From: Chromatiales bacterium
Lineage (GTDB): Bacteria; Pseudomonadota; Gammaproteobacteria; JAJPIJ01
Reading direction: 5' to 3'
DNA: 64,000 bases
NCBI GenBank assembly: GCA_052388435.1
Contig: JBQTIC010000003.1
Span: 1,565 to 65,564, forward strand
Positions within the stretch are counted from its first letter, which is position 1. Each line of letters starts with the position of its first letter. The position numbers and the translations under genes are program-made. Below the pieces are notes generated by a model. It was given only the letters and a program-made list of their open reading frames with translations. It was not told where the DNA came from and did no database searches. This document shows, one piece after another, positions 29,566-48,577 of this stretch.

Positions 29566-29641
29566 GCACTTTCACCCCGTTCACGCTGTTGGAGCGGCCC
29601 TGGCCGCGAACAGCGACGCGTTCGCGGGCTGGCGCCCGCTC

Positions 29642-30805
29642 CTACTGGCCCGTCTTGATCCTGGTCCACGAACGGGTGAGCAGGCGATCGTACTCGGCGG
29701 TGTGCACCGGGTTGGGGAAGAGCTTGGCCTTGACCTCCGGCGGCGGAAAGATCCCCGGGTCGTTCTTCACCTCATCGTTGATGAACTCCAGGGACGCCGC
29801 ATTGGCATTGGCATAGTTGACGTAGTTGCTGACGGCGGCGGTGATCTCCGGCCGCAGGAAGTAATCGAGGAACAGGTGCGCGTTCTTCGGATGCGGCGCA
29901 TCGACGGTGATCGCCAGCAGATCGAACCACACCTCAGCGCCTTCCTTGGGTATGAAATAGGCAAGCTCGATACCCTGGCCCGCCTCCTCGGCGCGGTCGC
30001 GGGCGATGAACACATCGCCGCTCCAGCCGACCACCAGACAGACTTCGCCGTTGGCGAGGTCATTAATGTATTGGGACGAATGGAAGTACTTGATGTGCGG
30101 CCGCGCCTGCATCAGCAACGCCTCGGCCGCCTCCAGATCCTTCGGGTCCTCGCTGTCCGGCTCCTTGCCGAGATAGCGCAATGCCGTCGCCATGATCTCG
30201 GTCGGCGCATCGAGCATGGTCACGCCACAGTCGGCAAACTTCGACAGCAGCTCGGGCTTGAAGATGAGCTCCCACGAATCCAGCGTTGCCTCGGGCATGC
30301 GCTCCTTGACCTTGGCGACGTTGTAGCCGATGCCGGTCGTTCCCCACATCCACGGAAAGGAATAGAGGTTGTCCGGATCGTACTTCGCCAGCGTCTGCAT
30401 GATCTCCGGATCGAGATTCTTGTAATTGGGGATCTGTGCCCGGTCGAGCTTCTGGAACACGCCAGCCTGTGCCTGTCTGGCGAGGAAGTTCGCGCCTGGG
30501 ACCACGATGTCATAGCCGGTCTTGCCGGCGAGCAGCTTGGCTTCGAGCACCTCGTTCGAGTCGAAGACGTCGTAGCGGACCTTGATGCCGGTCTCCTTCT
30601 CAAAATTGGGAACGGTGTCCTCGGCGATATAGTCCGACCAGTTGTAGATGTTGAGGATCTTTTCATCATCGCCACCTGCAACTGCGCCGGCGGTGGTTGT
30701 ATCTTTGGACACTGCGGGCGGGGCTTCTGCATTACCCTGTTTTTTCCCGCATCCGCCAAGAACCAAGACAAGTAGAACGAGGCTGAGCTTCTTCGTGTTC
30801 GGCAT
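29642..30805 (-). CDS. putrescine-binding periplasmic protein (PotF/SpuD-like)
   Basis: Aligns over its full length to E. coli PotF (YNWSDYIA.DTV.NFEKETGIKV.YDVFDSNEVLE...). The start is taken at MPNTKKLSLVLLVLVLGGCG, a lipoprotein-like signal. Confidence 0.85.
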   Translation of the reverse strand: MPNTKKLSLVLLVLVLGGCGKKQGNAEAPPAVSKDTTTAGAVAGGDDEKILNIYNWSDYIAEDTVPNFEKETGIKVRYDVFDSNEVLEAKLLAGKTGYDIVVPGANFLARQAQAGVFQKLDRAQIPNYKNLDPEIMQTLAKYDPDNLYSFPWMWGTTGIGYNVAKVKERMPEATLDSWELIFKPELLSKFADCGVTMLDAPTEIMATALRYLGKEPDSEDPKDLEAAEALLMQARPHIKYFHSSQYINDLANGEVCLVVGWSGDVFIARDRAEEAGQGIELAYFIPKEGAEVWFDLLAITVDAPHPKNAHLFLDYFLRPEITAAVSNYVNYANANAASLEFINDEVKNDPGIFPPPEVKAKLFPNPVHTAEYDRLLTRSWTRIKTGQ

Positions 30806-30976
30806 AACGTCATCTCCTGATGGGTGCAAATATCGATTAAGGCATCCCTGACGGAGCGTCCTGTACAAAACACAACCACCACTGCGTGCAGGCATGAGCC
30901 GGAGCGTGGCCTCACACCGATTCTCTCTCTGTCCTCCTTGGCATGTAAAGCTCGTTGTACTGTGACAACGCGCTGA

Positions 30977-32365
30977 TCAGTTAGTCTGCGCGGCAATTCC
31001 CAGGCGTGCGGCAGTCATGTCCAGGCTCTTCTTCGCTAGCAGCCACATCTCGTCGATGTCGGCTCGTGTCGAAATGAGCGGCGGCGCCAGTATCATCGTA
31101 TCGCGCACGGCGCGCATCACCAGGCCGTTGTCAAAGCAGAAATCGCGGCACAGGGTACCGACGTCGCCGATGGGCTCGAAGAAACGGCGAGCGGCCTTGT
31201 CCTGCACCAGCTCAATCGCGGCGAGCAGCCCGACACCCCGGACCTCCCCCACCAGCGGGTGATCGCTGAACTCCTGCCAGCGCTGCTGCAGATAGGGGCC
31301 GGTCGCGCGCTCGACGCGCTCTATGATGCCTTCGTTCCGCAATACCCGTATATTCGCACATCCGACCGCACAGGCCGCCGGGTGGCCGGAGTACGTGAAG
31401 CCGTGGTAGAACTCGCCGCCGCCCTCGATGATCGGTCTGGCGACACGGTCGCTCACCAGCACGCCGCCCAGCGGCAGGTAACCGCCGCTCACCCCCTTGG
31501 CAAACGGCATCAGGTCCGGCTCGATGCCGAAGTAGTCACTGCCGAACCACTTGCCCGTCCTGCCGAATGCGCAGATGACTTCGTCGGCGATGAGCAGGAC
31601 GCCGTGCTTCTTGCAGATGCGGTTCACTTCCGGCCAATAGGTGTCAGGGGGAATGATCATGCCGCCAGCGCCCTGGACAGGTTCGCCGATGAAGGCGGCG
31701 ACGTTTTCCGCGCCGAGCTCCAGGATCTTCTGCTCCAGCCAGCCGGCGGCCTGGCGCCCGAACTCCGGGGGTGAGAGACTCCCGCCGCTCCCGTACCAGT
31801 ACGGCGCGCCAATGTGCACTATACCGGGGATGGGCAGGTGCCCCTGTTCGTGCACCGGCTTCTGCCCGCCGAGGCTCGCCGCCGCGATAGTCGAGCCGTG
31901 AAAGGCGTTTTCACGCGAGATGATGATGCGTCGGGCAGGTTTGCCGACTACGTCCCAGTAGCGGCGCACCAGCCGGATCACGGTATCGTTGGCCTCGGAG
32001 CCCGAACCGGTGAAGAACACGTGGTTGAAACCCGGCGGCGCGACTTCCGCCAGCAGGCGCGCGAGTTCTATTGCCGGCGGATGGGCGGTCTTGAAGAAGC
32101 TGTTGTAGTAGGGCAGCTCGCGGAGCTGCTCGCAGGCTGCGTCGATGAGCTCGGCGCGCCCGTAGCCGAGATTGCAACACCAAAGGCCCGACATGCCATC
32201 GAGCAGGCGCCGATTATCGGAGTCCCAGAGGTAAATGCCTTCGGCGCGGGTGATGACGCGCGTACCCTCCTCGCGCAACGCCCTGGAGTCCGTGAAGGGA
32301 TGCAGGTAGTGGCGCCGGTCGATCTCCTGCCACTCCGCCGTGCTGTGCTTCGGTATCGCGTTCAT
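30977..32365 (-). CDS. class III aminotransferase, putrescine--pyruvate transaminase type (SpuC-like)
   Basis: 462 aa PLP fold-type I omega-aminotransferase with GSGSEANDT and LIADEV...FGRTG motifs. Its position between the GS-like gene and potF matches spuC. Confidence 0.8.
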   Translation of the reverse strand: MNAIPKHSTAEWQEIDRRHYLHPFTDSRALREEGTRVITRAEGIYLWDSDNRRLLDGMSGLWCCNLGYGRAELIDAACEQLRELPYYNSFFKTAHPPAIELARLLAEVAPPGFNHVFFTGSGSEANDTVIRLVRRYWDVVGKPARRIIISRENAFHGSTIAAASLGGQKPVHEQGHLPIPGIVHIGAPYWYGSGGSLSPPEFGRQAAGWLEQKILELGAENVAAFIGEPVQGAGGMIIPPDTYWPEVNRICKKHGVLLIADEVICAFGRTGKWFGSDYFGIEPDLMPFAKGVSGGYLPLGGVLVSDRVARPIIEGGGEFYHGFTYSGHPAACAVGCANIRVLRNEGIIERVERATGPYLQQRWQEFSDHPLVGEVRGVGLLAAIELVQDKAARRFFEPIGDVGTLCRDFCFDNGLVMRAVRDTMILAPPLISTRADIDEMWLLAKKSLDMTAARLGIAAQTN

Positions 32366-33696
32366 ACCTTGAGCAACAAGTGCTCGCGTTCCCAGGAGCT
32401 GATGACCTGGAAGAACGTCTCGTACTCCTGTTCCTTTACCGCTGCGTAAGCCTTCACGAATCGCGCCCCGAGGATCTCATGCAGGTGCTCACTGTCGGCG
32501 AGCAGCTTCAGCGCCGACTGCAGGTCGCGTGTGAGGCCGTAGGGCAGCTCATAGGCACTCGCGGCCAGTGGTTCCGTCGGGTGCAGCATCTCCTTCATGC
32601 CGAGAAAGCCGCAGGCAAGTGAAGCGGCGATGGCCAGATAGACGTTGGCATCCGCGCCTGGGACGCGGTTTTCCACACGCGTGTTCTCCGGCTCCGAGTT
32701 CGGCACCCGAAGTCCGACCGTGCGGTTGTCGTGCCCCCAATGCACGTTCGTGGGGGCCGAATGCCAAGGGGCAATGCGCCGGTAGGAATTCACGTTCGGC
32801 GCGAAGAACGGCATCGCCGCCGGCAGATAGGTCTGCAAGCCGGCGATATGGGCCAGGAACAGCCGTGAATGCCGCCCCTTCTTGTCGACGAAGATGTTCT
32901 TGCTCGTCTTCCTGTCGATGACGCTCTGGTGCAGGTGCATGGCGCTGCCGGGCTCATTCTGCAGCGGCTTGGCCATGAAGGTGGCGAAGATCTTGTGGCG
33001 GAACGCCGCCTCGCGCACGGTGCGTTTGAAGATGAAGATCTGGTCGGCAAGTTCCAGCGCATTGCCGTGCCGGAAATTGACCTCCATTTGCGCCGCGCCG
33101 TCTTCGTGGATGAGCGTGTCGATCTCGAGCTCTTGTTCCTCGCAGTAGTCGTAAATGTCCTCAAAAAGTGGATCGAACTCGTTCACCGCGTCGACGCTGT
33201 AGGGCTGGCGTCCGGTCTCCGCTCTCCCCGACCGGCCGACTGGCGGCTCGAGCGGGTAGTCCGCATCGATGTTCGGCTTCACCAGGTAGAACTCGATCTC
33301 CGGCGCCACGACGGGCTCCCAGCCTTTCGCCTCGTAGGTCTCGAGCACGCGGCGCAGGACATGGCGCGGAGAGATATCCACCGGGATACCGTTGCCATAG
33401 AAGCAGTCGTGGATGATCTGGGCCGTCGGCTCCGCCGCCCACGGTACCTTGCGGATTGTGTTCGGGTCGGGCAGCAGCACCATGTCGATCTCGGCGGGAT
33501 TCATGATCGCGGGATCATGGATGTATTCGCCGGTGACGGTCTGGACGAACAGGCCCTCGGGCAGGCGCATGCCCTCCTCTTCTGTGTACTTCTTGGCGGG
33601 CATGATCTTGCCGCGTGCGACCCCGGCCATGTCGGGAACCAGTGCCTCGACTTCGGTGATGCCGTTCTTTTCAAACCACTGCTTGATGACGGTCAT
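32362..33696 (-). CDS. glutamine synthetase family protein, gamma-glutamylpolyamine synthetase type (PauA/SpuB-like)
   Basis: GS catalytic-domain motifs are present. It is first in the spuBCDEFGH-like operon. Confidence 0.8.
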   Translation of the reverse strand: MTVIKQWFEKNGITEVEALVPDMAGVARGKIMPAKKYTEEEGMRLPEGLFVQTVTGEYIHDPAIMNPAEIDMVLLPDPNTIRKVPWAAEPTAQIIHDCFYGNGIPVDISPRHVLRRVLETYEAKGWEPVVAPEIEFYLVKPNIDADYPLEPPVGRSGRAETGRQPYSVDAVNEFDPLFEDIYDYCEEQELEIDTLIHEDGAAQMEVNFRHGNALELADQIFIFKRTVREAAFRHKIFATFMAKPLQNEPGSAMHLHQSVIDRKTSKNIFVDKKGRHSRLFLAHIAGLQTYLPAAMPFFAPNVNSYRRIAPWHSAPTNVHWGHDNRTVGLRVPNSEPENTRVENRVPGADANVYLAIAASLACGFLGMKEMLHPTEPLAASAYELPYGLTRDLQSALKLLADSEHLHEILGARFVKAYAAVKEQEYETFFQVISSWEREHLLLKV

Positions 33697-34333
33697 GGCA
33701 TGCCTTCACACACTTTGCAGCGTTACCCCGCCAGCTGTCCGCGGTGCTGCACCCCAGGGCGGTCCGTCACCAGCCACGGCTCGCTCGAGGCCAACGGCGC
33801 CACGCTCGCCAGCCCGGCGGGTGCCGCGATTCGACACTGGAGCCGCTACCCGTGAGTAGCACGCCGTACACCCGCTCCGGCGGGTCCCCTTTATCGAGGT
33901 TGCGCCCGAGCATTGGGATGAACAACTGGGCAGGCTGTCGGCGGCATCGTGTACCCACGCGGATATGTTTTGCGTAGACGGCGCAAAAGCGCTCGCCCCC
34001 GATCTCGTTGCGGTCGGCAGTCATACCGATGCCGGTTTTTCGCTGCCGCATGCCCATGGCCGGACGGCTCCCGAAGCGTGCTGGAGCCGTGTGTCGATTT
34101 TTTTAAACAATATCACGAGGCCGCCAGCCCCACAAGGCAAGCCTGTGGAGATGCTTGCTGTTGCGTCGCATTCCTGCGTCGCTGGATTTCGGAGCGGCGC
34201 ATTATCGTGGTTTTGTGCACCTGCACTATGGCCTTTGGCAGCATAGAATATGAAAATTGCCCCAGGGGAATCGGGTGGCCCGGAGAGTTCCGGCATGTCA
34301 CGAAGTACAAAAATATTAAACGGATAGCAAACG
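33697..34333. promoter_or_regulatory. 637-bp divergent intergenic control region between the spuB-like operon and puuA-puuB
   Basis: Unusually long non-coding gap with AT-rich tracts (tttttttaaacaatatcacgag; catagaatatgaaaattg; gtacaaaaatattaaacgg). No sigma-54 -24/-12 element could be matched. Confidence 0.4.
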
Positions 34334-35704
34334 ATGGCGCAAAAACGTGAGAGCGGCGAAGCGCGGCGTTTCCTCACCGCGCACCCAGCGGTCCAGTGCA
34401 TAGACCTCCTTATTGCGGACATCAACGGCTGCCAGCGTGGCAAGCGCGTGCGCCGCGACGCGCTCGCCAAGGTCTGGCGCGACGGGATCTGTCTGCCGGG
34501 CTCCCTCTATGGCTTGGACATCACCGGCACCACCGTGGAGGCGAGCGGACTGGGTTTCGCCATTGGCGACGCCGACTATGTTTGTCGACCGGTCCTAAAC
34601 CGCCTGACGACCTGTCCATGGCATGACCCGCCCACCGCACAGGTCCTGCTTGCCATGAGGGAGCGAGACGGCACGGGATTTTTCGCTGACCCGAGGGCGG
34701 TACTCACCGAGGTGGCGGAGCGCTTCCGCGCACTGCGCCTGCGTCCCGTGGTCGCCGTCGAACTGGAGTTCTATCTCGTTGACCGTCGGCGGACCCGTTC
34801 AGGCAAACCGCAGCCTCCGCTGTCCCCGGTCACCGGCGAGCGCGAGGCCAGCACGCAAGTCTACGGCATGAAGGAGATTGATGACTACGCGACATTCCTG
34901 GAAGACGTCCGGCGGGCCGCCGAGGCGCAGGGTCTGCCGGCCGATACCGCCGTGTCCGAATACGCCCCCGGCCAGTACGAGGTCAATCTGCGCCATCGTG
35001 CCGACCCGGTCGCCGCATGCGACGATGCGTTTCTACTCAAGCGATTATTGAAGGGCGTGGCCAACCGGCACGGCATGGAAGCGACTTTCATGGCCAAACC
35101 CTACGAGGAACTTGCAGGCAGCGGTCTGCATATCCACTTGAGCCTGGCCAATGCGCAGGGGCGCAATGCCTTCGCTGCCGAGCGACTCCTGCAGCAGCGC
35201 CTGCTGAGGCATGCCGTCGGCGGTCTCAAGGCGACGATGATCGACGCCACGGCGATCTTCGCCCCGACCGCCAATTCCTACCGCCGCTACCGCGCCGGCG
35301 CCTTCGTGCCAATGGCGCCCACCTGGGGGGTGAACAATCGCACCCTGGCACTGCGCATCCCCGCCGGGCAGCGGGCTACCACGCGCATCGAGCACCGCGT
35401 GTCCGGCGCGGATGCCAACCCCTACACCGTTATGGCCGCCGTGCTCGCCGGCGCGCATTATGGGATCGTCAACAGGCTCGATCCGGGTGTGCCCACCGAG
35501 GGCAACGCCTACACGCAGCATCCGCCGACGCTGCCGCGTTACTGGAGCGAGGCGTTGCGGACGTTCGAGAAGAGCAAGGTCATGCGTCACTATCTGGGCG
35601 AGCGGTTTTGTCGGGTCTACAGCGCCTGCCGCTGGCATGAATGCGAGGCCTTCAACGCGGCGGTGACCCCCCGTGAGTACGACTGGTATCTGCGCAGTGT
35701 CTGA
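34334..35704 (+). CDS. puuA: glutamate--putrescine ligase (gamma-glutamylputrescine synthetase)
   Basis: Aligns along its length to E. coli PuuA (DLNGC.RGKR..., VVAVELEFYL.D, ATFMAKPYEE.AGSG.HIH.S, RVEYRVAGADANPY, YLGERFC.VY.AC). Confidence 0.8.
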   Translation: MAQKRESGEARRFLTAHPAVQCIDLLIADINGCQRGKRVRRDALAKVWRDGICLPGSLYGLDITGTTVEASGLGFAIGDADYVCRPVLNRLTTCPWHDPPTAQVLLAMRERDGTGFFADPRAVLTEVAERFRALRLRPVVAVELEFYLVDRRRTRSGKPQPPLSPVTGEREASTQVYGMKEIDDYATFLEDVRRAAEAQGLPADTAVSEYAPGQYEVNLRHRADPVAACDDAFLLKRLLKGVANRHGMEATFMAKPYEELAGSGLHIHLSLANAQGRNAFAAERLLQQRLLRHAVGGLKATMIDATAIFAPTANSYRRYRAGAFVPMAPTWGVNNRTLALRIPAGQRATTRIEHRVSGADANPYTVMAAVLAGAHYGIVNRLDPGVPTEGNAYTQHPPTLPRYWSEALRTFEKSKVMRHYLGERFCRVYSACRWHECEAFNAAVTPREYDWYLRSV

Positions 35705-35760: not shown

Positions 35761-37041
35761 ATGAGCATCGACGGACACGCGAACTCCTATTACGCCGCGA
35801 GCGCCAACCCGGCGCCGGCGCAGCCTACGCTCGAGGAGGCGGTCGTCTGCGATGTGTGCGTGATCGGCGGCGGCATAACCGGCTGCTCGACGGCCCTCAA
35901 TCTCGCCGAGCGCGGCTATCGCGTCGTGCTGGTCGAAAGTCATTGCATCGGTTACGGCGGGTCGGGACGCAGTGGGGGCCAGATGATCGCGGGTTTCGCG
36001 CGCGACATGAGCGAGTACCGCCGCCTCGTGTCTCGCGAGGACGCGCAACGGCTGTGGGACATGTCCACGGAGGCGGTCCGCATTACCAAGAGTCGCATCG
36101 AACGGCATCACATCCAGTGTGATTTGGCGATGGGTCAGATGCATGTCGCGATCAAGCCACGGCAGCACCAAGAGTTAGTCGACGGAAAACGCGAGCTTGA
36201 AGAAGAGTACGGCTATGAGGGGCTGCGACTGCTGCAAGGCGCGAGCTTGCGTGAAATGCTGGACACTGACCGCTACATCTCGGGTCTGTTCGATACGCAC
36301 GGCGGCCATCTGCACCCCTTGAACTACACGCTGGGACTGGCGGCGGCTGCACGGGCCGCGGGCGCCCACATCTTCGAGCATTCGCCGGCGCTGAGCTTAG
36401 GTCTTGGGGATCCAGCAACTGTACGCACGCCACGCGGAGAAGTGCGGTGCAAGCATCTGGTGCTCGCTTGCGGCGCGTACATAGAGGAACTGGTGCCGAA
36501 ACTGCGGCGCAAGATCATGCCCGTCGGCACTTACATCACCGCCACCGAACCGCTGGGCGAAGAGAGGGCGCGCTCGCTCATCAGGAACAACATGGCGATC
36601 ACGGACATCAACTTCGTGCTTGATTACTTCCGCCTCTCAGCGGATCACCGCCTGTTGTTTGGCGGTCGGGTCAGCTACTCGACATTCGATCCCCCCGCTC
36701 TCGCCCTGACCCTGCGCCGACGGATGACGCGGGTCTTTCCGCAGCTCGTTAACATCAAGCAGGACTACACGTGGGGTGGCTTTGTCGACATCACCCTCAA
36801 TCGCTTTCCCCATTTCGGCCGTCTGCGGCCCGATGTGTACTTCGCGCACGGCTTCTCCGGGCATGGGATGGCGCTGACCGGTCTTGCCGGAGAATTGCTC
36901 GCCGAGGCGATCGCGGGCACTGCGCAGCGTTTTGATCTCTTTGCCAAGGTCAAGCATCATGACTTCCCGGGAGGCAAACTCATGCGCACGCCACTGCTGG
37001 TGCTGGCCATGCTTTACTTCCGCCTGCGCGATCTGCTCTGA
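35761..37041 (+). CDS. puuB: gamma-glutamylputrescine oxidoreductase (FAD-dependent)
   Basis: Aligns along its length to E. coli PuuB (SYYAASAN...CDVCV.GGG.TG.S.AL.LAE.G..VV.LE...). Confidence 0.85.
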   Translation: MSIDGHANSYYAASANPAPAQPTLEEAVVCDVCVIGGGITGCSTALNLAERGYRVVLVESHCIGYGGSGRSGGQMIAGFARDMSEYRRLVSREDAQRLWDMSTEAVRITKSRIERHHIQCDLAMGQMHVAIKPRQHQELVDGKRELEEEYGYEGLRLLQGASLREMLDTDRYISGLFDTHGGHLHPLNYTLGLAAAARAAGAHIFEHSPALSLGLGDPATVRTPRGEVRCKHLVLACGAYIEELVPKLRRKIMPVGTYITATEPLGEERARSLIRNNMAITDINFVLDYFRLSADHRLLFGGRVSYSTFDPPALALTLRRRMTRVFPQLVNIKQDYTWGGFVDITLNRFPHFGRLRPDVYFAHGFSGHGMALTGLAGELLAEAIAGTAQRFDLFAKVKHHDFPGGKLMRTPLLVLAMLYFRLRDLL

Positions 37042-37616: not shown

Positions 37617-38942
37617 TCAGATCGCGTCCTGACCGTTCGCGTCCTGACCGTGCGGTTCCGCACGCGTAACGAGCGCCTTGTCGATCTTTGCCCCGTCCAT
37701 GTCGGCCACCTCGAAGCGGAAGCCATTCCACTCGAAGTGTTCCCCCGCGGCCGGGATTCTCTCCAGCTGCGCGAGCATGAACCCGGCGAGCGTATGGTAA
37801 TCGCCGCTCGCGGCCAGCTGCGGCAGACCCAGCATGTCCCGCGCGGCATCGAGGTGCAGTTCGCCGCCCATGAGCCACGAACCATCACGGCGCTGGACTG
37901 CCTGCGGACCCGCCCCCTCTTCGGCGCCGGGGAAGCCGCCTACGATCGCCTTCAGAATGTCAAACGTCGTCAACACGCCGTCCACGGTGGCGCTCTCGTC
38001 GAGCACGACCGCCATATGTACGGGGGAGCGCTTGAACAGCTCCAATACCCGCAGGGCCGAGGTGTAATTGTCCACATAGATCGGATCACGGATCGCGGCG
38101 CGGATTTCAAACGGCTGGCCGGCGAGCATCTGCGAGAGCAGGTCTTTTGTATGCACGATGCCAAGTGGCCGATTAAGTCCGCCACGCGCCACCACCAGCC
38201 GCGAGAACACCGATGCCAGCAGCCGTCGCCGCTGCTCTGATTCGTCGGCGTCGAGATCCAGCCACTCCACATGGATCGCGGGGGTCTTGATCGCCCGAAC
38301 CTTCCAGTCCGCGAGCCGCATGACGCCGCTGATCATCTCCTTCTCCTGTGGGGCCAGCACACCCTGCCGCACCCCATCGGCAACGAGCGCCTTGACTTCC
38401 TCCTCGATGATCTGCGGCCGGCGCCGGCCACGGGCACCGAACACGGCAAGCAATGCGCGCGAGGATACCTCCAGTACGAAGACGATTGGCACCGCCAGCC
38501 TGGCCAACAGGGCTATCGCCGGGGCAACCAGCACGGCGATGCGCTCGGCGTGACGTATGGCCAGTTGCTTGGGAACGAGTTCGCCGATGACGATCGAGGC
38601 GTAGGTGATGCCGGACACCACGGCGGCGATCGCCAACCCCTCGGCGTGCGGCGCGAAGGCGGGAAAGCCCGCCAAATAACGCTCCAGAGGAGGGGCCAAC
38701 TGCTCGCCGCCAAAGACCCCGGCGAAGATGCCCACGCCAGTGATGCCGACCTGGACGGTGGACAGGAACCGCGCCGGCTCCTGGTTCATGGCGAGGGCGG
38801 CGGCCGCCCCCCGGATGCGCTTGTGCACCATCGCCCGCAGCCGTGTCCGCCGCGCCGATACCACGGCGAGTTCGGCCATGGCGAAGAAGCCGTTCAACAG
38901 TATCAGGGCCAGGATGAATAGCATATCGGGACCATAGGGCAT
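37617..38942 (-). CDS. CNNM/DUF21 - CBS pair - CorC_HlyC domain membrane protein (hemolysin/TlyC family, putative divalent-cation efflux)
   Basis: N-terminal DUF21 TM region, tandem CBS domains and a C-terminal transporter-associated domain are read from the sequence. Confidence 0.8.
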   Translation of the reverse strand: MPYGPDMLFILALILLNGFFAMAELAVVSARRTRLRAMVHKRIRGAAAALAMNQEPARFLSTVQVGITGVGIFAGVFGGEQLAPPLERYLAGFPAFAPHAEGLAIAAVVSGITYASIVIGELVPKQLAIRHAERIAVLVAPAIALLARLAVPIVFVLEVSSRALLAVFGARGRRRPQIIEEEVKALVADGVRQGVLAPQEKEMISGVMRLADWKVRAIKTPAIHVEWLDLDADESEQRRRLLASVFSRLVVARGGLNRPLGIVHTKDLLSQMLAGQPFEIRAAIRDPIYVDNYTSALRVLELFKRSPVHMAVVLDESATVDGVLTTFDILKAIVGGFPGAEEGAGPQAVQRRDGSWLMGGELHLDAARDMLGLPQLAASGDYHTLAGFMLAQLERIPAAGEHFEWNGFRFEVADMDGAKIDKALVTRAEPHGQDANGQDAI

Positions 38943-39084
38943 GGTAATTTCTCACGCGTCGGAGGACTTGACCCCTAGCATACCGGATGGGTGAGGCCGG
39001 AGCCGGGCGAGACTGTAGCGCAAGCTCTGGGGGCGGCCGCTATGGAACCCTTCGCCCGAGGAACCGCGGGCAGGCGCGAGGGCG

Positions 39085-39711
39085 CTAAGGGCGTGGCGGC
39101 ACCGACCTGTCAGAAAGCCCGAGCAGCACCCCGCGGATAAGCGGCCCGATGATCGCCGAGGGCCGCGTGCGGCGCAACCCGACGGTGAACTCGAGCTGCA
39201 CACCGCGCCCGCGACGACCGCGATTGCAGATGTTCCCGGGATCGTGGGCGGGAAAGGGATGGCCGTCGAGTCGCCCGTCCACACCGTGCGCCACCAGCGC
39301 CGAGGCGATGCGTGCTTTCAGCGCATGATCCAGCCCGCCAATGTAGACGCGCTCGTCCAGGCCCACACAGCCATGCACAGTGATGACGGTCTCGGCGCGC
39401 GCGACGAGCGCCATGCAGCGTGGCTCGTCAAATCGGCGGCTGGTGATGTGAAGGATGTCGAAGTTCTTACGGGGCTTCAACCCTTCAAACAGATAAAGAT
39501 TGAACCGCTGACCGGCGATGGCGCTGGCGATCTGCGAGGTGCCGCGCTCGATGCCGCCACCGTGCGGCGCGACAATCGCGATGGGCGAGTCGGGCACTTC
39601 CCGGATGGTCACTCGGAAATCATGGCCCTCGCGCTCGCCGCGCGACAATTCCTCGTAGTTGCGGTAGGTGTCGACCCGCGCATGGTAAAGCAGTGGAAAG
39701 GGCTGATGCAT
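39085..39711 (-). CDS. poly-gamma-glutamate hydrolase family protein (PghP-like zinc gamma-glutamyl hydrolase; DUF867)
   Basis: IAIVAPHGGGIERGTSQIA and ITVHGC motifs are typical of the YjqB/PghP family. The size (about 208 aa) fits that family. Confidence 0.55.
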   Translation of the reverse strand: MHQPFPLLYHARVDTYRNYEELSRGEREGHDFRVTIREVPDSPIAIVAPHGGGIERGTSQIASAIAGQRFNLYLFEGLKPRKNFDILHITSRRFDEPRCMALVARAETVITVHGCVGLDERVYIGGLDHALKARIASALVAHGVDGRLDGHPFPAHDPGNICNRGRRGRGVQLEFTVGLRRTRPSAIIGPLIRGVLLGLSDRSVPPRP

Positions 39712-39903
39712 CAGGCAGGCGTCCTGGGATAAGCCACGGCCCATCCGCCATCGGAGGACTCATCACCCGACGTTCCCCGGTGGCGCCCTGCGATGGAGTT
39801 CGATAGGGCGGAACCGCCAGCGCAGCGCCGGGTCAGAACGGCACGTTTCAGGTTGCCGCTGGCGGCCGCTTGCCTGTGCTCTTGCCGCGCGCTCCGTGGC
39901 ACG

Positions 39904-40470
39904 TCACCCGCCCATAATGGTGTAACGATTCGCGCGCAGCCACGCAATCACGTCATCAACGTTCCTGTCCGGTGGGTATACCGGATAGAACACCTTCTCA
40001 ATGACGCTATCCCTGGCGATGAGCGTCAGCCGCTTGATGAGCGTCCTACCATCAGCCTCGAAGGTCGGCAGGCGCAGGCTCTGCGCAAAGCGCAATTCCG
40101 TGTCGCTCAGCAGCTCGAACGCCAGGCGCAGCCGCTCGACGGTTTCATGCTGCTCGCCGGTGTCCTGCGTGCTCACCCCGAATACCTCCGCGCCCAGGTG
40201 CTGCAAATCGTCGTAGCGGTCACGGAAGGAGCAGGCTTGGGGCGTACATCCTCTGGCGCCCGGGATCTTATCCCAACCGGCTGGAAGCGGGCGATCCGGC
40301 CCCGCCGTCATCGGATAGCAATACACCACGACGATGCCGGGGCGATGACTCAGATCGACTTCTGTGCCAGCGGTTGACGGCAGAGAAAGCGCCGGCAGCC
40401 GCTGGCCGGGCAAATGCTTGCAGGCGCCGTCGTCTTCAGGGACGGGCAAGTCCGGAGGCAGCGCGCTCAC
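39904..40470 (-). CDS. peroxiredoxin, Bcp/PrxQ-like (AhpC/TSA family)
   Basis: Peroxidatic Cys motif GCTPQACSF, analogous to Bcp PGCTxQAC, in a thioredoxin fold. Confidence 0.7.
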   Translation of the reverse strand: MSALPPDLPVPEDDGACKHLPGQRLPALSLPSTAGTEVDLSHRPGIVVVYCYPMTAGPDRPLPAGWDKIPGARGCTPQACSFRDRYDDLQHLGAEVFGVSTQDTGEQHETVERLRLAFELLSDTELRFAQSLRLPTFEADGRTLIKRLTLIARDSVIEKVFYPVYPPDRNVDDVIAWLRANRYTIMGG

Positions 40471-40488
40471 GTCCGCAGATCAGGATCG

Positions 40489-40986
40489 CTACTGCGCAAG
40501 GCCGAGCTGTTTGTAGAAGCCGTACGCATCGTAGTAGTCGCCCTGCCAGACGATCCGGCCGTTGTGGAACCGCATCAATGTCGCGCCGGAGAATTTGAAC
40601 GGCTTGCCGGTCGCGGCGGTGCCGTCGCTGCAGGCGCCGGTATTGGTCCCGCTGAACGTCCACTGGAACGCGACCGCGTCGTGACCGACTATCGGCTCGC
40701 CCTCACGCGTCCACACGCAATCAGGCGCGGCGGTCATGAACGCCTGAATCACCTTTTCCTGCGCATTGGCACGGCCCTTCTGCGGTTCGCCCACGCTGGC
40801 GTCGTAATACTCGCCGTCCTCGGCGAAGAACGCCGCCGCCTTCGCCGCATCGTGTTCGTTCCAGGCTGCCATATAGGCATCGACGACTGTCACCGGATCG
40901 GCAGCCAGCGCCCAAGCAGACATTGACAGCGAGACGGCACAGAAAGAGCGCATCAACCAGGACCGCAAATTCAGTAGTATTTTCAT
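40489..40986 (-). CDS. secreted SnoaL-like / NTF2-fold protein (ester cyclase-like)
   Basis: Signal peptide followed by a SnoaL-like polyketide-cyclase fold signature (AYMAAWNEHDAAKAAAFFAEDGEYYD). Confidence 0.55.
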   Translation of the reverse strand: MKILLNLRSWLMRSFCAVSLSMSAWALAADPVTVVDAYMAAWNEHDAAKAAAFFAEDGEYYDASVGEPQKGRANAQEKVIQAFMTAAPDCVWTREGEPIVGHDAVAFQWTFSGTNTGACSDGTAATGKPFKFSGATLMRFHNGRIVWQGDYYDAYGFYKQLGLAQ

Positions 40987-41038
40987 GTTGACCTCCGCGA
41001 TCAAATGGGCCGACCGCGTCGCCAGACGCAGCGCCCGC

Positions 41039-42463
41039 TTACAGCCTGACCATCACATGCCGCACTGTGGTGTAGTCCTCCAGCGCATACATCGACAGAT
41101 CCTTGCCGTAACCGGATTGCTTGTAGCCGCCATGCGGCATCTCCGCGCACAGCATGAAGTGGGTATTGATCCACGTGCAGCCGTACTGGAGATGCGCGGC
41201 AACCTGCATCGCCTTGCCGATGTCCTTGCTCCAGACTGACGAGGCAAGCCCGTAGTCGGAATCGTTGGCCCAGGCAACGGCCTGCCCCGCGTCATCGAAG
41301 CGCGTGACGGATACCACCGGGCCGAAGACCTCCTTGCGCACGATCTCGTCCTCCTGCCGCGCACCGGCAATGACTGTGGGCTCGTAGAAGAACCCGCCGC
41401 CCGCAACCACCTTGCCGCCAGTGACGACCTCTACGTGCTTCATCGCCGCCGCGCGCTCGACGAAACCCGCGACCCTTTCGCGCTGCCTGCTACTTATGAG
41501 TGGACCGATATCCACGTCCTCCTCCTCCGGCTGCCCGAATCTAATTCCCTTGGCTGCTGCGCCCAGATCGGCCACCAGCTTCTCGTAGATCCTGTTGCCG
41601 GCATAGATGCGGCAGGCCGCGGTACAGTCCTGGCCAGCATTGTAGTAGCCGAAAACGCGAACGCCCTGGACGACCTCCTGCAGGTCCGCGTCGTCGAAGA
41701 CAATGACCGGCGCCTTACCACCCAACTCAAGATGCGTGCGCTTGATGCTCTTCGAGGCTGCCTCCAGGACCTTCTGGCCGGTCGCGATGCTGCCGGTGAG
41801 CGAGATCATTTTCACGCCCGGATGGTTGATGAGGGTGGTGCCGACAGAATCGCCGATGCCCGTGACCACATTCAGCACGCCTGGCGGCAGGATGTCGCTG
41901 GCCAGCTCGGCGAGCTTCAGCGTCGTGAGGGGCGTCTGCTCCGAGGGTTTAAGCACGATCGTGTTGCCGGCGCCGATGGCGGGCGCCATTTTCCACGCCG
42001 CCATCATGAGCGGGTAGTTCCACGGCGCTATGGAACCCACGACCCCGATGGGGTCGCGGCGGATCATGCTGGTGAGCCCCGGCAGGTACTCGTCGGCGGC
42101 GCTGCCGGTCATGCAGCGCACTGCGCCGGCGAAGTAGCGGAATACATCGACGATGGCCGGTATCTCGTCGCCCAGTGCTTTGGCATAGGGCTTGCCGCAG
42201 TTCTGCGACTCCAGGCGCGCGAAGGCCTCGCCCTGCGCCTCAATGGCATCCGCAAGCTTGAGCAGCATGAGCGAGCGCTCCTGCGGCGTTGTGCGCGACC
42301 AAGTCAGGAACGCTCGTGCCGCGGCCGCAACTGCCTGATCGATCTGCGCGCCGCTTGCCTGCGGCACCTTCACGAGCACATCCCCGCGTGCAGGATTGAG
42401 CACCTCGTAGTCCGCGCCCGCCCCTTTCACCATCTTGCCGTCAACCAGCATTTGCGTGTTCAT
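41039..42463 (-). CDS. patD: gamma-aminobutyraldehyde dehydrogenase
   Basis: Near full-length alignment to E. coli PatD/YdcW (ESRNCGKP...[63 protein letters not shown]). The start is taken at MNTQMLVDG. Confidence 0.85.
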
Positions 42464-42501
42464 CGCGTCTCTCTCCTGGGTTTCAATGTCAAGTCGCTCG
42501 A

Positions 42502-43317
42502 TCATTTGCCGGCGCCCGCGACCGATTCGGTTCCGCGGGTCAGGTAGAAGGCGAGCAGGATGGGCACGAACGTCACCGCGATCACGAACACCGCGACGAC
42601 GTTGGTGACCGGCCGCTGCCGCGGCCGCACCAGTTCCTCGAGCATCCAGATCGGCAGTGTCGCGTTCTGCCCCGCCGTGAACGTCGTGACGATCACCTCA
42701 TCAAAGGATAGCGCGAAGGCGAGCATTCCGCCTGCGAGCAGGGCGGTAGCGATGTTGGGTAGCACGACGTAGCGGAAGGTCTGGAACCCGTCGGCACCGA
42801 GGTCCATCGATGCCTCTACGAGCGACGCCGAGGTGCGGCGGAAGCGGGCGATGACATTGTTGTACACCACCACGACACAGAAAGTGGCATGGCCAAGGAT
42901 GATGGTCCAGATGCTGAAGGGGACTCCCAAGAGATTGAACGCCGAGCGCAGCGAGATGCCGGTGACAATGCCGGGCAGCGCGATGGGCAGGATGAGCAGC
43001 AGGGAGATAGTTTCGCGGCCGAAGAATCGGCCGCGATACACTGCGGCCGCCGCCAGCGTCCCCAGCACCAGCGCGACGCCGGTTGCCACAGCGGCAACCC
43101 GCAGCGACAGCGTGAGCGCCTGCCAGACATCCGCGCGCTGCCAGGTGACGGCAAACCAACTAAGCGTTAACCCTGGCGGTGGGAAGACGTAGGACTTGTC
43201 TTCGGTGGTAAAGGCATATAGCAGTATGAGCATGAGCGGCAGGTGCAGAAACAACAGGCCGGCAACGGCGGTGAGCTTCAGTCCATAGGTGGCGCCGGCC
43301 GCAGCCTTAGAGCGCAC
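42502..43317 (-). CDS. polyamine-type ABC transporter permease (PotC-like)
   Basis: Six-TM ABC permease of the PotC family. It overlaps patD and the potB-like gene. Confidence 0.85.
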
Positions 43318-44242: not shown

Positions 44243-44276
44243 ATAATTTTGCCCCTACTTCTTGCAGGCCATACCC

Positions 44277-47077: not shown

Positions 47078-48577
47078 TTAATGGGTCAGATTGACCCACG
47101 TGGTCTTGAGCTCCACGTACTTGTCGATAGCGTGCAGCCACTTGTCGCGGCCGAAGCCCGGCTGCTTGTCGCCGCCGAACGGCACTGTCATGTCGCCCTC
47201 ATCGAGACAGTTGATCCACACCGTGCCAGCCCGTAGCCGCCGCGCCATTTCGTGCGCGGTGCGAAGGTTGCCCGTCCATACCGCCGCCGCAAGACCGTAA
47301 ATGGTGTCGTTGGCGATCGCCACGGCTTCCTCGAGGTCGGTGAAGGTCAGCGTAGACAAGACCGGACCGGAAATCTCCTCGCGGGCTATGGTCATGGCTG
47401 GTTTGACCTCGTCGAACACGGTCGGGGCGACGTAGTAACCGCCGGTATCCTGCCGCACACGCTTGCCGCCGAGGCGCAGGCGCGCGCCTTCACCCTTGCC
47501 GGATTTCACGTAGCGCAGGATGGTGTTCATCTGGGCATCATCGACGATGGCGCCAAGCCGCGACTCTGGATCTAGGGGGTCGCCAGGCTGAAGCCGCCTG
47601 CCCGCCGCCAGCACCTTCTCCACAAACTGATCCTTGATTCGCGTCTGCACCAACAGACGCGAATCCGCTGAACACATCTCGCCCTGATTGAAGAACATGG
47701 CCCAGGCGGCCTGCGCGGCGACGTCGAGGTTAGGGCAGTCGGCGAGCACGATGTTCGGCGTCTTGCCGCCGCATTCAAGCCACACCCGCTTCATGTTCGA
47801 TTGGCCGGCGTACTGCAGCATCAGACGCCCCACACGTGTCGAGCCAGTGAACGCAACGCAATCGACATCGTCATGAAGACCGAGTGCCTTGCCAGCGGTA
47901 TCACCAAATCCAGGCACCACGTTGAACACCCCTTCTGGCATCCCGGCCTCGGCGGCCAGTTCGGCGACGCGTACGGCGGTGAGCGGTGACTTCTCCGAGG
48001 GCTTCAGCACCACGCTGTTGCCGACTGCCAGCGCCGGACCAATCTTCAATGCCGCCATCAGCAGCGGGAAATTCCAAGGCACGATGGCGGCGACCACGCC
48101 GAGCGGTTCGCGCGTGATCAGTCCCAGGGACTCCGGCCCCGTCGGGGCAAGTTCGCCTGGAAGTTTGTCGAGGGACTCGCCGTACCAGTTGATGCAGTGG
48201 GCGGCGCCCGGTATGTCGACGGTAGCGCTGTCGGCGATGGGCTTGCCCATATCCAGTGTCTCCAGCAACGCCAGCTCATCGATATGGGCGCGGATATTCT
48301 CGGCCAAACGGATGAGAGTCTGTTTGCGCTGCGCGGGCGGCATCCGCGACCAGACCCCCGCCTTGAAGCTGCGCCGCGCTGCGGCCACCGCGCGATCGAC
48401 GTCTTCCGCCTCGCAGGCCGCGACGGTCGTGAGCACCTGTCCGTCGATAGGGCTGATGCAGTCGAACACCTTGCCGGAGGCGGATGCGACGTACCTGCCA
48501 TCGATGAACGCCGGCCCGTGGAAGTGCATCGTCTCGCGCAGCTTGGTCCAGTATTCGTGCGGCTTGGGGTGTGACAT
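47078..48577 (-). CDS. puuC: gamma-glutamyl-gamma-aminobutyraldehyde dehydrogenase
   Basis: Aligns along its length to E. coli PuuC (LALLETLD.GKPI, VPWNFPLL, VLKPSEKSPL, NMKRVWLE.GGK, DMTVPFGG.KQSG.GRDK). Confidence 0.85.
   Translation of the reverse strand: MSHPKPHEYWTKLRETMHFHGPAFIDGRYVASASGKVFDCISPIDGQVLTTVAACEAEDVDRAVAAARRSFKAGVWSRMPPAQRKQTLIRLAENIRAHIDELALLETLDMGKPIADSATVDIPGAAHCINWYGESLDKLPGELAPTGPESLGLITREPLGVVAAIVPWNFPLLMAALKIGPALAVGNSVVLKPSEKSPLTAVRVAELAAEAGMPEGVFNVVPGFGDTAGKALGLHDDVDCVAFTGSTRVGRLMLQYAGQSNMKRVWLECGGKTPNIVLADCPNLDVAAQAAWAMFFNQGEMCSADSRLLVQTRIKDQFVEKVLAAGRRLQPGDPLDPESRLGAIVDDAQMNTILRYVKSGKGEGARLRLGGKRVRQDTGGYYVAPTVFDEVKPAMTIAREEISGPVLSTLTFTDLEEAVAIANDTIYGLAAAVWTGNLRTAHEMARRLRAGTVWINCLDEGDMTVPFGGDKQPGFGRDKWLHAIDKYVELKTTWVNLTH

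What the first reader, a model, noticed from the sequence alone, without database searches (positions are those of the whole stretch)
39085..39711. PghP-like zinc gamma-glutamyl hydrolase inside a puu/spu island that lacks a PuuD/SpuA-type gamma-glutamyl-GABA hydrolase
The island encodes the rest of the gamma-glutamylation route: two GS-like ligases (a PuuA ortholog and a SpuB-like copy), the PuuB oxidase, PuuC, PatD, the repressor PuuR and polyamine importers. No class-I glutamine-amidotransferase-like hydrolase (PuuD/SpuA/PauD) is present anywhere in the 64 kb. The only predicted gamma-glutamyl-bond hydrolase is this YjqB/PghP-family protein. A non-orthologous displacement, with a PghP-fold enzyme releasing GABA or beta-alanine from gamma-glutamyl-GABA, is a testable hypothesis.
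Basis: inference. Interest (0 to 1): 0.65.

Follow-up and report, generated by a model that had tools for sequence, protein, structure and literature searches.

The report
PghP-like hydrolase beside decayed spuA gene
The gene is a real, intact zinc gamma-glutamyl hydrolase of the phage PghP family lying inside a polyamine-breakdown gene island. The island's usual hydrolase gene (spuA/puuD) survives only as a broken remnant, and comparison with related genomes gives little support for the idea that the PghP-like enzyme took over its job.

Summary
Window 39085-39711(-) encodes an intact PghP/PghL-family (PF05908) zinc hydrolase. All catalytic and substrate-binding residues are present, and the predicted fold matches PghP (TM 0.84). 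The surrounding island has PuuA/SpuI-, SpuB-, PuuB-, PuuC-, PatD-, PuuR- and SpuC-like genes and polyamine ABC importers, but no intact Peptidase_C26 gene.

New result: the slot where spuA sits in relatives holds a 96-codon relic (33767-34057, -). It matches only the first ~84 residues of a relative's C26 hydrolase, so the part that would carry the catalytic residues is missing. The island therefore lost its hydrolase secondarily.

The displacement idea is weakly supported:
- Relatives with 63-65% identical PghP have the same Aldedh-Prx-PghP arrangement together with an intact C26 gene.
- Other orthologs (60-64%) sit next to an alpha/beta-hydrolase near mnmE/dnaA with no gamma-glutamylation genes nearby.
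- None of about 160 more distant homolog loci has GS-like or DAO genes within the fetched flanks (at most 10 kb each side).
- The recurring partner in this lineage is a peroxiredoxin-like gene, also found outside puu contexts.
- The characterised member PghL is an endo-hydrolase that leaves gamma-Glu-Glu uncleaved.

Most likely this is a passenger Prx-PghP module, with the PuuD step supplied by a paralog elsewhere. Displacement remains possible (~0.12).

The parts
39085..39711 (-). PghP/PghL-family (PF05908, MEROPS M86) zinc gamma-glutamyl hydrolase, 208 aa. An alternative upstream ATG at 39744 gives 219 aa. There is no signal peptide or TM segment.
   Evidence: Pfam 176.5 bits. PDB YndL E = 2.6e-32 and PghP E = 2.4e-25. 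H50, E55, H88, T90, S91, H113, E174 and R180 are invariant in 62 homologs and correspond to PghL H41, E46, H77, T79, S80, H102, E165 and R171 (PMC6506827). AF2 pLDDT 89.4. Foldseek TM 0.84 to 3a9l. Maximum 19-aa hydropathy 1.33.
39904..40470 (-). BCP/PrxQ-like redoxin (AhpC/TSA family), the recurring upstream partner of the PghP gene in this lineage
   Evidence: Pfam Redoxin and AhpC-TSA, with weak NCBIfam thiol-peroxidase hits. A homolog lies directly upstream of PghP in L001/L002, L091-93, L095 and L011 and, as a contig-end fragment, in L089. The two genes are 8-bp overlapping to 26-bp spaced in four of these (L091, L089, L001, L011). L010 (gene truncated at the contig end) and L094 (short unannotated upstream ORF) show tblastn matches only.
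33767..34057 (-). Truncated relic of the island's own spuA/puuD (Peptidase_C26) gene. Only about the first 84 codons are recognisable, so the region expected to carry the Cys-His-Glu catalytic residues is deleted.
   Evidence: tblastn with the relative's C26 protein (L091:9022-9855; Pfam C26 241.8 bits; 42% identical to EcPuuD): E = 6e-8, Met1 aligned to Met1, 35% identity over 85 aa. Shuffle z = 17.6, 0 of 2000 shuffles reach the score. The relic lies in the syntenic slot immediately upstream of the SpuB-like GS and divergent from the PuuA-like GS. The relic/GS junction is identical in an independent Logan assembly, L176. The Pfam HMM itself does not detect the relic.
32362..33696 (-). SpuB/PauA-like gamma-glutamylpolyamine synthetase (GS-like)
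   Evidence: Pfam Gln-synt_C. 35.6% identical to EcPuuA. 93% identical to the L001 ortholog and 87% to the L091 ortholog.
34334..35704 (+). PuuA/SpuI-like gamma-glutamylputrescine synthetase
   Evidence: 44.5% identical to EcPuuA over 447 aa. Pfam Gln-synt_C.
35761..37041 (+). PuuB/PauB-like FAD oxidase
   Evidence: 42.5% identical to EcPuuB. Pfam DAO.
47078..48577 (-). PuuC/PauC-like aldehyde dehydrogenase
   Evidence: 51% identical to EcPuuC. The best NCBIfam hit is PuuC at 625 bits, below its equivalog cutoff of 850.
41039..42505 (-). PatD-type aminobutyraldehyde dehydrogenase. In relatives it directly precedes Prx-PghP; in the window the SnoaL gene lies between it and Prx.
   Evidence: NCBIfam aminobutyraldehyde dehydrogenase 804.8 bits against a cutoff of 615. 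Synteny.
48602..49180 (-). PuuR-like HTH-cupin repressor
   Evidence: 40% identical to EcPuuR. Pfam HTH_3 and Cupin_2.
26580..32365 (-). SpuC-like aminotransferase followed by a SpuD-H-like polyamine ABC importer
   Evidence: Pfam Aminotran_3, SBP_bac_8, ABC_tran+TOBE_2 and 2x BPD_transp_1.
37617..38942 (-). CNNM/CorC-type transporter gene directly downstream of PghP. It is unrelated to amine catabolism and absent at this position in relatives.
   Evidence: Pfam CNNM, CBS and CorC_HlyC. Relatives carry DUF1761 or nothing at this position.
40489..41004 (-). SnoaL-like protein, inserted between PatD and Prx in this genome only
   Evidence: Pfam SnoaL. Absent at this position in L001 and L091.
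55119..56363 (-). Alpha/beta-hydrolase, ortholog of the gene that directly precedes PghP in the sister clade. A diverged paralog lies at 53529-54761(-).
   Evidence: Pfam Abhydrolase_6/1. 52-54% identical to the hydrolase upstream of PghP in L003-L007/L009.

Best explanation
**Shown.**
- The gene encodes an intact, probably cytoplasmic zinc amidohydrolase of the PghP/PghL family, with the full catalytic apparatus for cleaving a gamma-glutamyl amide bond.
- In this gammaproteobacterial lineage it travels as a two-gene module with a BCP/PrxQ-like redoxin.
- The module sits at the 3' end of a PotF-type ABC / PatD operon, at the convergent junction with the PuuB/PuuA-like operon. Unrelated genes differ at this junction from genome to genome: SnoaL and CorC here, DUF1761 in L001.
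- The island is a canonical spuI | spuA-spuB-spuC-spuD..H arrangement whose own spuA (Peptidase_C26) was truncated to an inactive ~84-codon relic.

**Inferred.**
- The PghP-like gene is a neighbour of the gamma-glutamylation pathway, not an established member of it.
- The gamma-glutamyl-GABA hydrolase step is most probably supplied in trans by a second C26 paralog elsewhere in the genome, as in pseudomonads.
- The native substrate of the PghP-like enzyme is unknown. Because it keeps PghL's carboxylate-anchoring residues, it is more likely an oligo- or poly-gamma-glutamyl-type substrate than gamma-Glu-GABA.
For: **Family and active site.**, plus PMC6506827.

**spuA relic.**

**PghP and intact C26 coexist.** Both occur in the same arrangement in L091-L095.

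**Orthologs outside the island.** Orthologs at 60-64% identity lie beside an alpha/beta-hydrolase in a backbone of valS-holC-pepA-lptF on one side and mnmE-yidC-dnaA on the other (L004; the other loci show parts of it), with no puu genes. The window keeps the same valS-holC-pepA-lptF-hydrolase backbone.

**Tree.** An NJ tree places an abh-linked clade sister to a Prx-linked clade. One relocation event could therefore explain the association with the puu genes.

**Prx-PghP without puu genes.** Seen in L089 and in the Burkholderiales MAG L011, and probably L010, where only a contig-end tblastn match was seen.

**Wider family.**
- 0 of 80 species-representative loci and 0 of 80 metagenome loci have GS-like or DAO genes in the fetched flanks (at most 10 kb each side; many metagenome contigs are only 1-6 kb).
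- 127 immediate neighbours fall into 123 Pfam families, and none of the 25 most frequent is a polyamine family.

**Regulation.** A putative operator-like AT-rich motif occurs only at the two divergent puu promoters and not upstream of PghP. This is weak, because the pattern was derived from those two sites.

**Precedents.** P. aeruginosa has two pauD genes (PMC9397018). The P. putida spuBCDEFGH operon lacks spuA, which sits in another cluster (PMC10606097).
Against: - The rest of this MAG could not be searched, so a second C26 gene is assumed rather than shown.
- The other gamma-glutamylation genes are intact and well conserved (GS 93% identical to L001), so some hydrolase must serve the pathway.
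- PghP is the only gamma-glutamyl-bond hydrolase visible on the contig.
- It is co-directional and, in relatives, tightly spaced or overlapping with the ABC-PatD-Prx genes. Co-expression with amine catabolism is therefore plausible in three lineages.
- gamma-Glu-GABA is chemically a decarboxylated gamma-Glu-Glu.
Confidence: 0.6

Rival explanations
1. One reading: non-orthologous displacement. After spuA decayed, the PghP-like zinc hydrolase releases GABA or beta-alanine from gamma-glutamyl-GABA or gamma-glutamyl-beta-alanine and so completes the puu/spu pathway.
For: - The island's own C26 gene is a dead relic, while both GS-like ligases, PuuB and PuuC are intact.
- PghP is the only gamma-glutamyl hydrolase on the contig.
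- PghP was already present in the island in the relatives that still have C26, so a pre-existing enzyme was available to take over.
- The closest relative, L001, also lacks C26 and keeps Prx-PghP.
- The chemistry, a gamma-glutamyl amide bond, is of the right type.
Against: - There is no anti-correlation between PghP and C26: both are present in L091-L095.
- The association is confined to one clade and is explicable by a single event.
- Orthologs persist without any gamma-glutamylation genes nearby.
- No active-site change distinguishes the C26-less lineages: all PghL substrate-binding residues, including R171, are invariant.
- PghL is an endo-enzyme that accumulates gamma-Glu-Glu and releases no free Glu (PMC6506827).
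- Multiple unlinked C26 paralogs are common in polyamine-degrading gammaproteobacteria (PMC9397018, PMC10606097).
Confidence: 0.12
2. The Prx-PghP pair is an accessory module of amine catabolism that works alongside C26 rather than replacing it. The redoxin would remove H2O2 made by the PuuB-type oxidase. PghP would hydrolyse some other gamma-glutamyl amide, for example de-glutamylating mis-made gamma-glutamyl amines or cleaving gamma-glutamyl oligomers.
For: - In three lineages the pair is the last two genes of the SBP-ABC-PatD operon and faces the PuuB gene. Prx and PghP overlap by 8 bp or are separated by 15 bp.
- An FAD oxidase that produces H2O2 (general knowledge for PuuB) gives a rationale for a peroxiredoxin.
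Against: - The pair also occurs in unrelated contexts: L089, and L011 with Na/Ca exchanger, globin, BNR and Rieske genes.
- In the window the pair is separated from PatD by a SnoaL gene, and Prx and PghP are 160-190 bp apart.
- No shared regulatory motif was found.
Confidence: 0.15
3. It is a true poly-gamma-glutamate depolymerase, either a prophage remnant or a nutritional or anti-capsule enzyme acting on gamma-PGA made by other organisms. It would then have nothing to do with small gamma-glutamyl amides.
For: - All characterised family members are gamma-PGA endo-hydrolases (PMC4497714, PMC6506827).
- All PghL substrate-contact residues are conserved.
- 4 of 127 neighbours of homologs are PGA_cap/CapA proteins.
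Against: - There is no signal peptide and there are no phage genes in the neighbourhood.
- The gene is vertically inherited at about the same divergence as housekeeping neighbours: PghP 60-64% against PepA and LptF 63-67%.
- No pgs genes lie in the window.
Confidence: 0.1

Closest known systems
PghP (phage PhiNIT1) / PghL = YndL (B. subtilis) poly-gamma-glutamate hydrolases; Pfam PF05908, MEROPS M86; PDB 3a9l, 5onj, 21dc
   Same: - Full-length homology (E = 1e-25 to 1e-32).
- Same fold (TM 0.79-0.84).
- Identical Zn ligands (H-x4-E...H), catalytic Glu, the H-x-T-S substrate motif and the Arg equivalent to PghL R171.
- No signal peptide.
   Different: - Only 29-34% identical.
- Chromosomal and vertically inherited in a Gram-negative MAG with no phage context and no visible gamma-PGA genes.
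- Paired with a peroxiredoxin-like gene.
- Substrate untested.
PuuD (E. coli) / SpuA = PauD1 and PauD2 (Pseudomonas): gamma-glutamyl-GABA hydrolases; Peptidase_C26, class-I glutamine-amidotransferase fold
   Same: - Both families hydrolyse a gamma-glutamyl amide bond.
- The focal gene lies in an island that otherwise matches spuI | spuABCDEFGH plus puuB, puuC and puuR.
   Different: - Unrelated fold and mechanism: a Zn metallo-hydrolase, against the Cys-His-Glu triad known for the C26 family.
- The focal protein has no similarity to C26.
- The true C26 homolog of this island is the truncated relic at 33767-34057.
- Relatives carry both an intact C26 gene and PghP.
P. aeruginosa spuI-spuABCDEFGH and P. 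putida spuBCDEFGH (spuA relocated)
   Same: - Gene order matches: a GS-like gene divergent from [C26]-GS-aminotransferase-SBP-ABC.
- The P. putida case shows that an spu operon can lack spuA when the gene sits elsewhere (PMC10606097).
   Different: - Here spuA was not relocated cleanly but decayed in situ, leaving a relic.
- A PuuB-like oxidase lies immediately downstream of the spuI-like gene, in the same orientation.

Membership tests
PghP/PghL gamma-PGA hydrolase family (PF05908 / MEROPS M86) | Match to the family HMM above the curated threshold over the whole domain | tested here: met
   176.5 bits against a cutoff of 22; profile positions 1-166 of 191.
PghP/PghL gamma-PGA hydrolase family (PF05908 / MEROPS M86) | Zn ligands His-x4-Glu and a distal His (PghL H41, E46, H102) | tested here: met
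   H50, E55 and H113 are present and invariant in 62 homologs (PMC6506827).
PghP/PghL gamma-PGA hydrolase family (PF05908 / MEROPS M86) | Catalytic Glu (PghL E165) and substrate-binding H77, T79, S80 and R171 | tested here: met
   E174, H88, T90, S91 and R180 are invariant.
PghP/PghL gamma-PGA hydrolase family (PF05908 / MEROPS M86) | Carboxypeptidase-A-like open alpha/beta fold of PghP | tested here: met
   AF2 model pLDDT 89.4. Foldseek: 3a9l TM 0.84, rmsd 1.8 A; 21dc TM 0.81; 5onj TM 0.79.
PghP/PghL gamma-PGA hydrolase family (PF05908 / MEROPS M86) | Endo-hydrolysis of poly-gamma-glutamate | not testable with these tools
   Needs an enzyme assay.
PuuD/SpuA/PauD gamma-glutamyl-GABA hydrolase (Peptidase_C26) | Class-I GATase fold / C26 HMM match, with the Cys-His-Glu triad known for that family | tested here: not met
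   The focal protein hits only PF05908, and its fold search returns PghP-type structures. The only C26-derived sequence in the window is the relic at 33767-34057, which aligns to residues 1-84 only.
PuuD/SpuA/PauD gamma-glutamyl-GABA hydrolase (Peptidase_C26) | Hydrolysis of gamma-Glu-GABA to Glu and GABA (functional analogy, not homology) | not testable with these tools
   Needs an enzyme assay or complementation. Indirect evidence is negative: PghL does not cleave gamma-Glu-Glu dimers (PMC6506827).
Member of the puu/spu gamma-glutamylation gene set (functional linkage by genome context) | Co-location with GS-like/PuuB genes recurring independently across lineages | tested here: not met
   Co-location is seen only in one clade (window, L001/2, L091-95). 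None of ~160 other homolog loci shows it. No polyamine family is among the 25 most frequent neighbour families.
Member of the puu/spu gamma-glutamylation gene set (functional linkage by genome context) | Presence complementary to (anti-correlated with) Peptidase_C26 in the island | tested here: not met
   L091-L095 carry both PghP and an intact C26 gene.
Member of the puu/spu gamma-glutamylation gene set (functional linkage by genome context) | Co-transcription or co-regulation with puu genes | tested here: inconclusive
   The genes are co-directional with ABC-PatD(-SnoaL)-Prx, and no terminator-like site was found in the intergenic gaps between them. The putative operator motif occurs only at 34308 and 49188, not near PghP. 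No expression data are available.

The most novel reading that the evidence does not exclude
After in-situ decay of spuA, a PghP-fold zinc hydrolase already resident in the island became the gamma-glutamyl-GABA / gamma-glutamyl-beta-alanine hydrolase of the polyamine gamma-glutamylation pathway. This would be the first small-molecule substrate and first metabolic role for the PF05908 family, and a non-orthologous displacement of Peptidase_C26.
Probability: 0.12. Interest if true: 0.6.

Novelty: new member of a known kind. Interest (0 to 1): 0.3.

Why it matters
PF05908 proteins are widespread in bacteria that neither make gamma-PGA nor carry the relevant phages (PMC4497714), and no physiological role is known for them there. 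If this enzyme did act on gamma-glutamyl amines, it would give that large family a first metabolic function and add a new enzyme type to polyamine catabolism.

The evidence here makes that unlikely. The finding is better read as an ordinary family member in a lineage-specific neighbourhood.

Two concrete results remain useful:
- The spuA pseudogene relic documents loss of the island's own hydrolase gene.
- The recurring Prx-PghP pairing is a better lead to the protein's real role than the puu genes.

Tried and rejected
- **Looking up the source MAG to search its other contigs for C26.** The focal protein is not in the contig index. The neighbouring GS protein is found only on a 3.4-kb Logan contig. 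The genome-contig scan did not return the source genome. The decisive whole-genome test could therefore not be run.
- **Metagenome scan for closer relatives.** These were useful only as extra wider-family loci.
- **Pfam on the relic ORF.** No hit even at E <= 1. The relic is recognisable only with the close relative's C26 protein, and its similarity to EcPuuD alone is not significant (z = 1.1).
- **Relic in the sister locus L001/L002.** None was found; the 330-bp gap is clean.
- **Promoter and terminator scan of 37400-42700.** No sigma-70-like sites were found, and only two terminator-like sites, both inside coding regions and fewer than the 3.0 expected by chance.
- **Shared k-mers or palindromes between puu promoters and the PghP upstream region.** Nothing convincing. 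The AT-rich motif search is circular, because the pattern was derived from its own two hits.
- **All-against-all clustering of raw neighbour ORFs.** It was dominated by spurious antisense ORFs and was replaced by the Pfam scan of selected neighbours.
- **Primary P. aeruginosa papers.** Lu 2002 and Yao 2011 are not held. The statement that P. aeruginosa has two pauD genes is cited from a review (PMC9397018).
- **Prophage origin of this copy.** Considered and rejected: there are no phage genes nearby, and its divergence matches that of housekeeping neighbours.
Full report
**1. Observation**

The finding's coordinates hold a real gene. ORF 39085-39744(-) is 219 aa. The internal ATG at 39711 gives the 208-aa product that NCBI annotates as 'poly-gamma-glutamate hydrolase family protein [MAG: Chromatiales bacterium]' (P0001, 100% identical, contig 67.8 kb). 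GC3 is 0.79, typical of genes in this window.

Evidence for family membership:
- Pfam PF05908 (Gamma_PGA_hydro): 176.5 bits against a cutoff of 22.
- Solved structures: YndL/PghL E = 2.6e-32, phage PM1 hydrolase 21dc E = 2.5e-27, PghP 3a9l E = 2.4e-25, each over essentially the full length.
- An AlphaFold model built on 62 homologs has pLDDT 89.4.
- Foldseek returns only the three PghP-type structures as strong hits, with TM 0.79-0.84 and rmsd 1.8-3.0 A.
- H50, E55 and H113 (Zn ligands), E174 (catalytic Glu), and H88, T90, S91 and R180 (substrate contacts) correspond to PghL H41, E46, H102, E165, H77, T79, S80 and R171. All are invariant in the 62-sequence alignment (residue roles from PMC6506827).
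- There is no signal peptide or TM segment.

The enzyme looks fully competent.

**2. The island**

tblastn of the E. coli Puu proteins against the window, with Pfam and NCBIfam, gives these assignments:

| Window coordinates | Assignment | Evidence |
|---|---|---|
| 34334-35704(+) | PuuA ortholog | 44.5% to EcPuuA |
| 32362-33696(-) | second GS-like ligase | 35.6% to EcPuuA |
| 35761-37041(+) | PuuB | 42.5% |
| 47078-48577(-) | PuuC | 51% |
| 48602-49180(-) | PuuR | 40% |
| 41039-42505(-) | PatD-type aminobutyraldehyde dehydrogenase | NCBIfam 805 bits |
| 30977-32365(-) | SpuC-like aminotransferase | Pfam, NCBIfam |
| 49270-50649(+) | omega-aminotransferase | Pfam, NCBIfam |
| 50716-51837(+) | alanine dehydrogenase | Pfam |
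| 52015-53508(+) | methylmalonate/malonate-semialdehyde dehydrogenase | NCBIfam |

Two PotF-type ABC importers are also present.

EcPuuD finds nothing in any frame (best E = 0.93). Pfam scans of essentially all substantial ORFs in the 64 kb found no Peptidase_C26 or GATase domain.

**3. New: the island's own spuA is a relic**

Relatives (section 4) carry an intact Peptidase_C26 gene immediately upstream of the SpuB-like ligase. An example is L091:9022-9855, which scores 241.8 bits against Pfam C26 and is 42% identical to EcPuuD.

Searching the window with that protein gives one significant hit, at 34057-33803 on the minus strand: E = 6e-8, 35% identity, Met1 aligned to Met1, covering residues 1-84 only. 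The score lies 17.6 SD above shuffled controls, and 0 of 2000 shuffles reach it.

The hit is a 96-codon ORF (33767-34057) in the 637-bp gap between the two divergent GS-like genes. It ends 70 bp before the SpuB-like start codon. This is the spuA position in the P. aeruginosa spuI | spuABCDEFGH arrangement (arrangement as cited in PMC10606097).

Everything beyond residue ~84 is gone, including the region expected to carry the nucleophilic Cys and the His/Glu (family knowledge). The relic is only 35% identical to the relative's protein, whereas the adjacent ligase is 87% identical, which indicates long neutral decay.

The relic/ligase junction is 100% identical in an independent Logan assembly, L176, so it is not a binning artefact. 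The nearest relative, L001/L002, has a clean 330-bp gap with no remnant.

The absence of PuuD/SpuA is therefore a secondary loss.

**4. Is PghP tied to the pathway?**

Context of orthologs and homologs:

| Loci | PghP identity | Context |
|---|---|---|
| L001/L002 | 69-72% | ...ABC-PatD-Prx-PghP-DUF1761 \| PuuB-PuuA-like \| SpuB-SpuC-SBP...; no C26 |
| L091-L095 | 63-65% | SBP-ABC-PatD-Prx-PghP (Prx and PghP overlap by 8 bp in L091) \| PuuB \| intact C26-SpuB-SpuC-SBP |
| L089 | 67% | Prx-PghP followed by unrelated genes |
| L004-L007, L009 | 60-63% | lptF-RDD-alpha/beta-hydrolase-PghP \| mnmE-yidC-dnaA; no polyamine genes |
| L003 | 64% | hydrolase-PghP followed by AlaDH-aminotransferase-PuuR-ABC-PatD |
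| L011 (Burkholderiales MAG; probably also L010) | 53-54% | Prx-PghP among Na/Ca-exchanger, globin, BNR and Rieske genes |
| 80 species-representative and 80 metagenome loci | 40-63% | no GS-like or PuuB-like gene in the fetched flanks (at most 10 kb; many metagenome contigs are short) |

Further points:
- The window retains the valS-holC-pepA-lptF-hydrolase backbone at 53.5-64 kb. PghP (60-64%) is about as diverged as LptF and PepA (63-67%), which is consistent with vertical orthology.
- An NJ tree makes the hydrolase-linked clade sister to the Prx-linked clade. A single relocation can therefore account for the puu association.
- A Pfam scan of 127 immediate neighbours from about 65 loci gave 123 different families. 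The most frequent were MFS_1 (5), PGA_cap (4), KAP_NTPase (4) and AhpC/Redoxin (4). No Gln-synt_C, DAO or C26 was among the 25 most frequent.
- The genes immediately around PghP differ between close relatives: SnoaL and CorC in the window, DUF1761 in L001, neither in L091. The convergent junction between the two operons therefore looks permissive for insertions.

**5. Weighing the displacement hypothesis**

For:
- The pathway's other genes are intact and conserved.
- The island's own hydrolase gene is dead.
- A gamma-glutamyl-bond hydrolase is co-directional with, and in relatives tightly packed behind, the ABC-PatD genes.
- gamma-Glu-GABA resembles gamma-Glu-Glu.

Against:
- PghP and intact C26 coexist in the same arrangement, so there is no complementary distribution.
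- The linkage is confined to one lineage.
- Orthologs persist without gamma-glutamylation neighbours.
- The partner that recurs beyond the island is the redoxin.
- The C26-less lineages show no active-site differences.
- PghL is an endo-enzyme whose end products are gamma-Glu-Glu and the trimer, with no free Glu (PMC6506827). The closest small-substrate analogue is therefore not cleaved by the characterised enzyme.
- Unlinked C26 paralogs are normal. P. aeruginosa has two pauD genes (PMC9397018), and the P. putida spuBCDEFGH operon lacks spuA, which lies in a second cluster (PMC10606097).
- No paper in the searchable library links DUF867/PF05908 to polyamines.

The decisive test, a C26 search of the whole genome, could not be done because the MAG is not in the accessible indexes.

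**6. Verdict**

Estimated probabilities:

| Explanation | Probability |
|---|---|
| Ordinary, catalytically intact PghP-family member carried as a Prx-PghP module at an operon junction of a polyamine island, with the PuuD step supplied in trans | ~0.6 |
| Accessory role alongside C26 | ~0.15 |
| Displacement of PuuD | ~0.12 |
| Genuine PGA depolymerase | ~0.1 |

Novelty: a new member of a known family with unknown physiological substrate. Interest is modest, at 0.3. The hypothesis is cheap to test, and the relic makes the question sharper, but present evidence points to coincidence of location.

Noticed in passing
window 44262-44657 (+): An aspartate 1-decarboxylase (PanD, Pfam E = 2e-45) lies antisense between the ATPase and permease genes of a minus-strand PotF-type ABC operon. 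The same antisense insertion is conserved in relative L001 (5700-6080). panB and panC lie elsewhere in the window (11314-13004). PanD makes beta-alanine, and the neighbouring genes look like beta-alanine catabolism.
   Followed up: partly
window 34308-34321 and 49188-49201 (+): An AT-rich motif, ACAAAAWAYTAAAC, occurs only in the two divergent puu promoter regions: upstream of the PuuA-like gene and between PuuR and the aminotransferase. 0.06 matches are expected by chance. It is a candidate PuuR operator, but the pattern was derived from these two sites, so the test is circular.
   Followed up: partly
window 53529-54761 (-) and 55119-56363 (-): Two tandem ~410-aa alpha/beta-hydrolase paralogs lie next to lptF. 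The second is the ortholog (52-54%) of the hydrolase that directly precedes PghP in the sister clade (L003-L007). This may be an ancestral hydrolase-PghP operon, now split by about 14 kb of amine-catabolism genes. Function unknown.
   Followed up: partly
L014, L015, L017-L020, L032 (PghP homologs ~50-52% identical): Loci from taxonomically unrelated bacteria (Thauera, Sulfuriferula, Comamonas, Methylococcaceae, Hyphomicrobium, Nitrosomonadales) share related ORFs at similar spacings around their PghP homologs. KAP-family NTPase is among the more frequent neighbour families overall. This suggests a horizontally mobile element carrying a PghP-like gene.
   Followed up: no
loci scanned (members not listed individually): 4 of 127 immediate neighbours of PghP homologs are PGA_cap (CapA-like) proteins. 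Some family members outside Bacillales may therefore sit next to capsule or poly-gamma-glutamate-type genes.
   Followed up: no
window 23275-26278 (-): A type III polyketide synthase (25199-26278) lies next to an FAD-dependent monooxygenase (23275-24504) and a cupredoxin-like protein (22786-23259), directly upstream of the polyamine island. This may be a small secondary-metabolite cluster.
   Followed up: no
window 8842-11283 (+): An 813-aa protein has two cyclic-nucleotide-binding domains and a rhodanese domain. The C-terminal ~460 residues have no Pfam match.
   Followed up: no
window 39904-40470 (-): The redoxin partner has a ~14-residue insertion before its C-T-P-Q-A-C motif. By my reading of the sequence it lacks the Thr of the canonical peroxiredoxin PxxxTxxC motif, so it may not be a standard peroxidase.
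   Followed up: no
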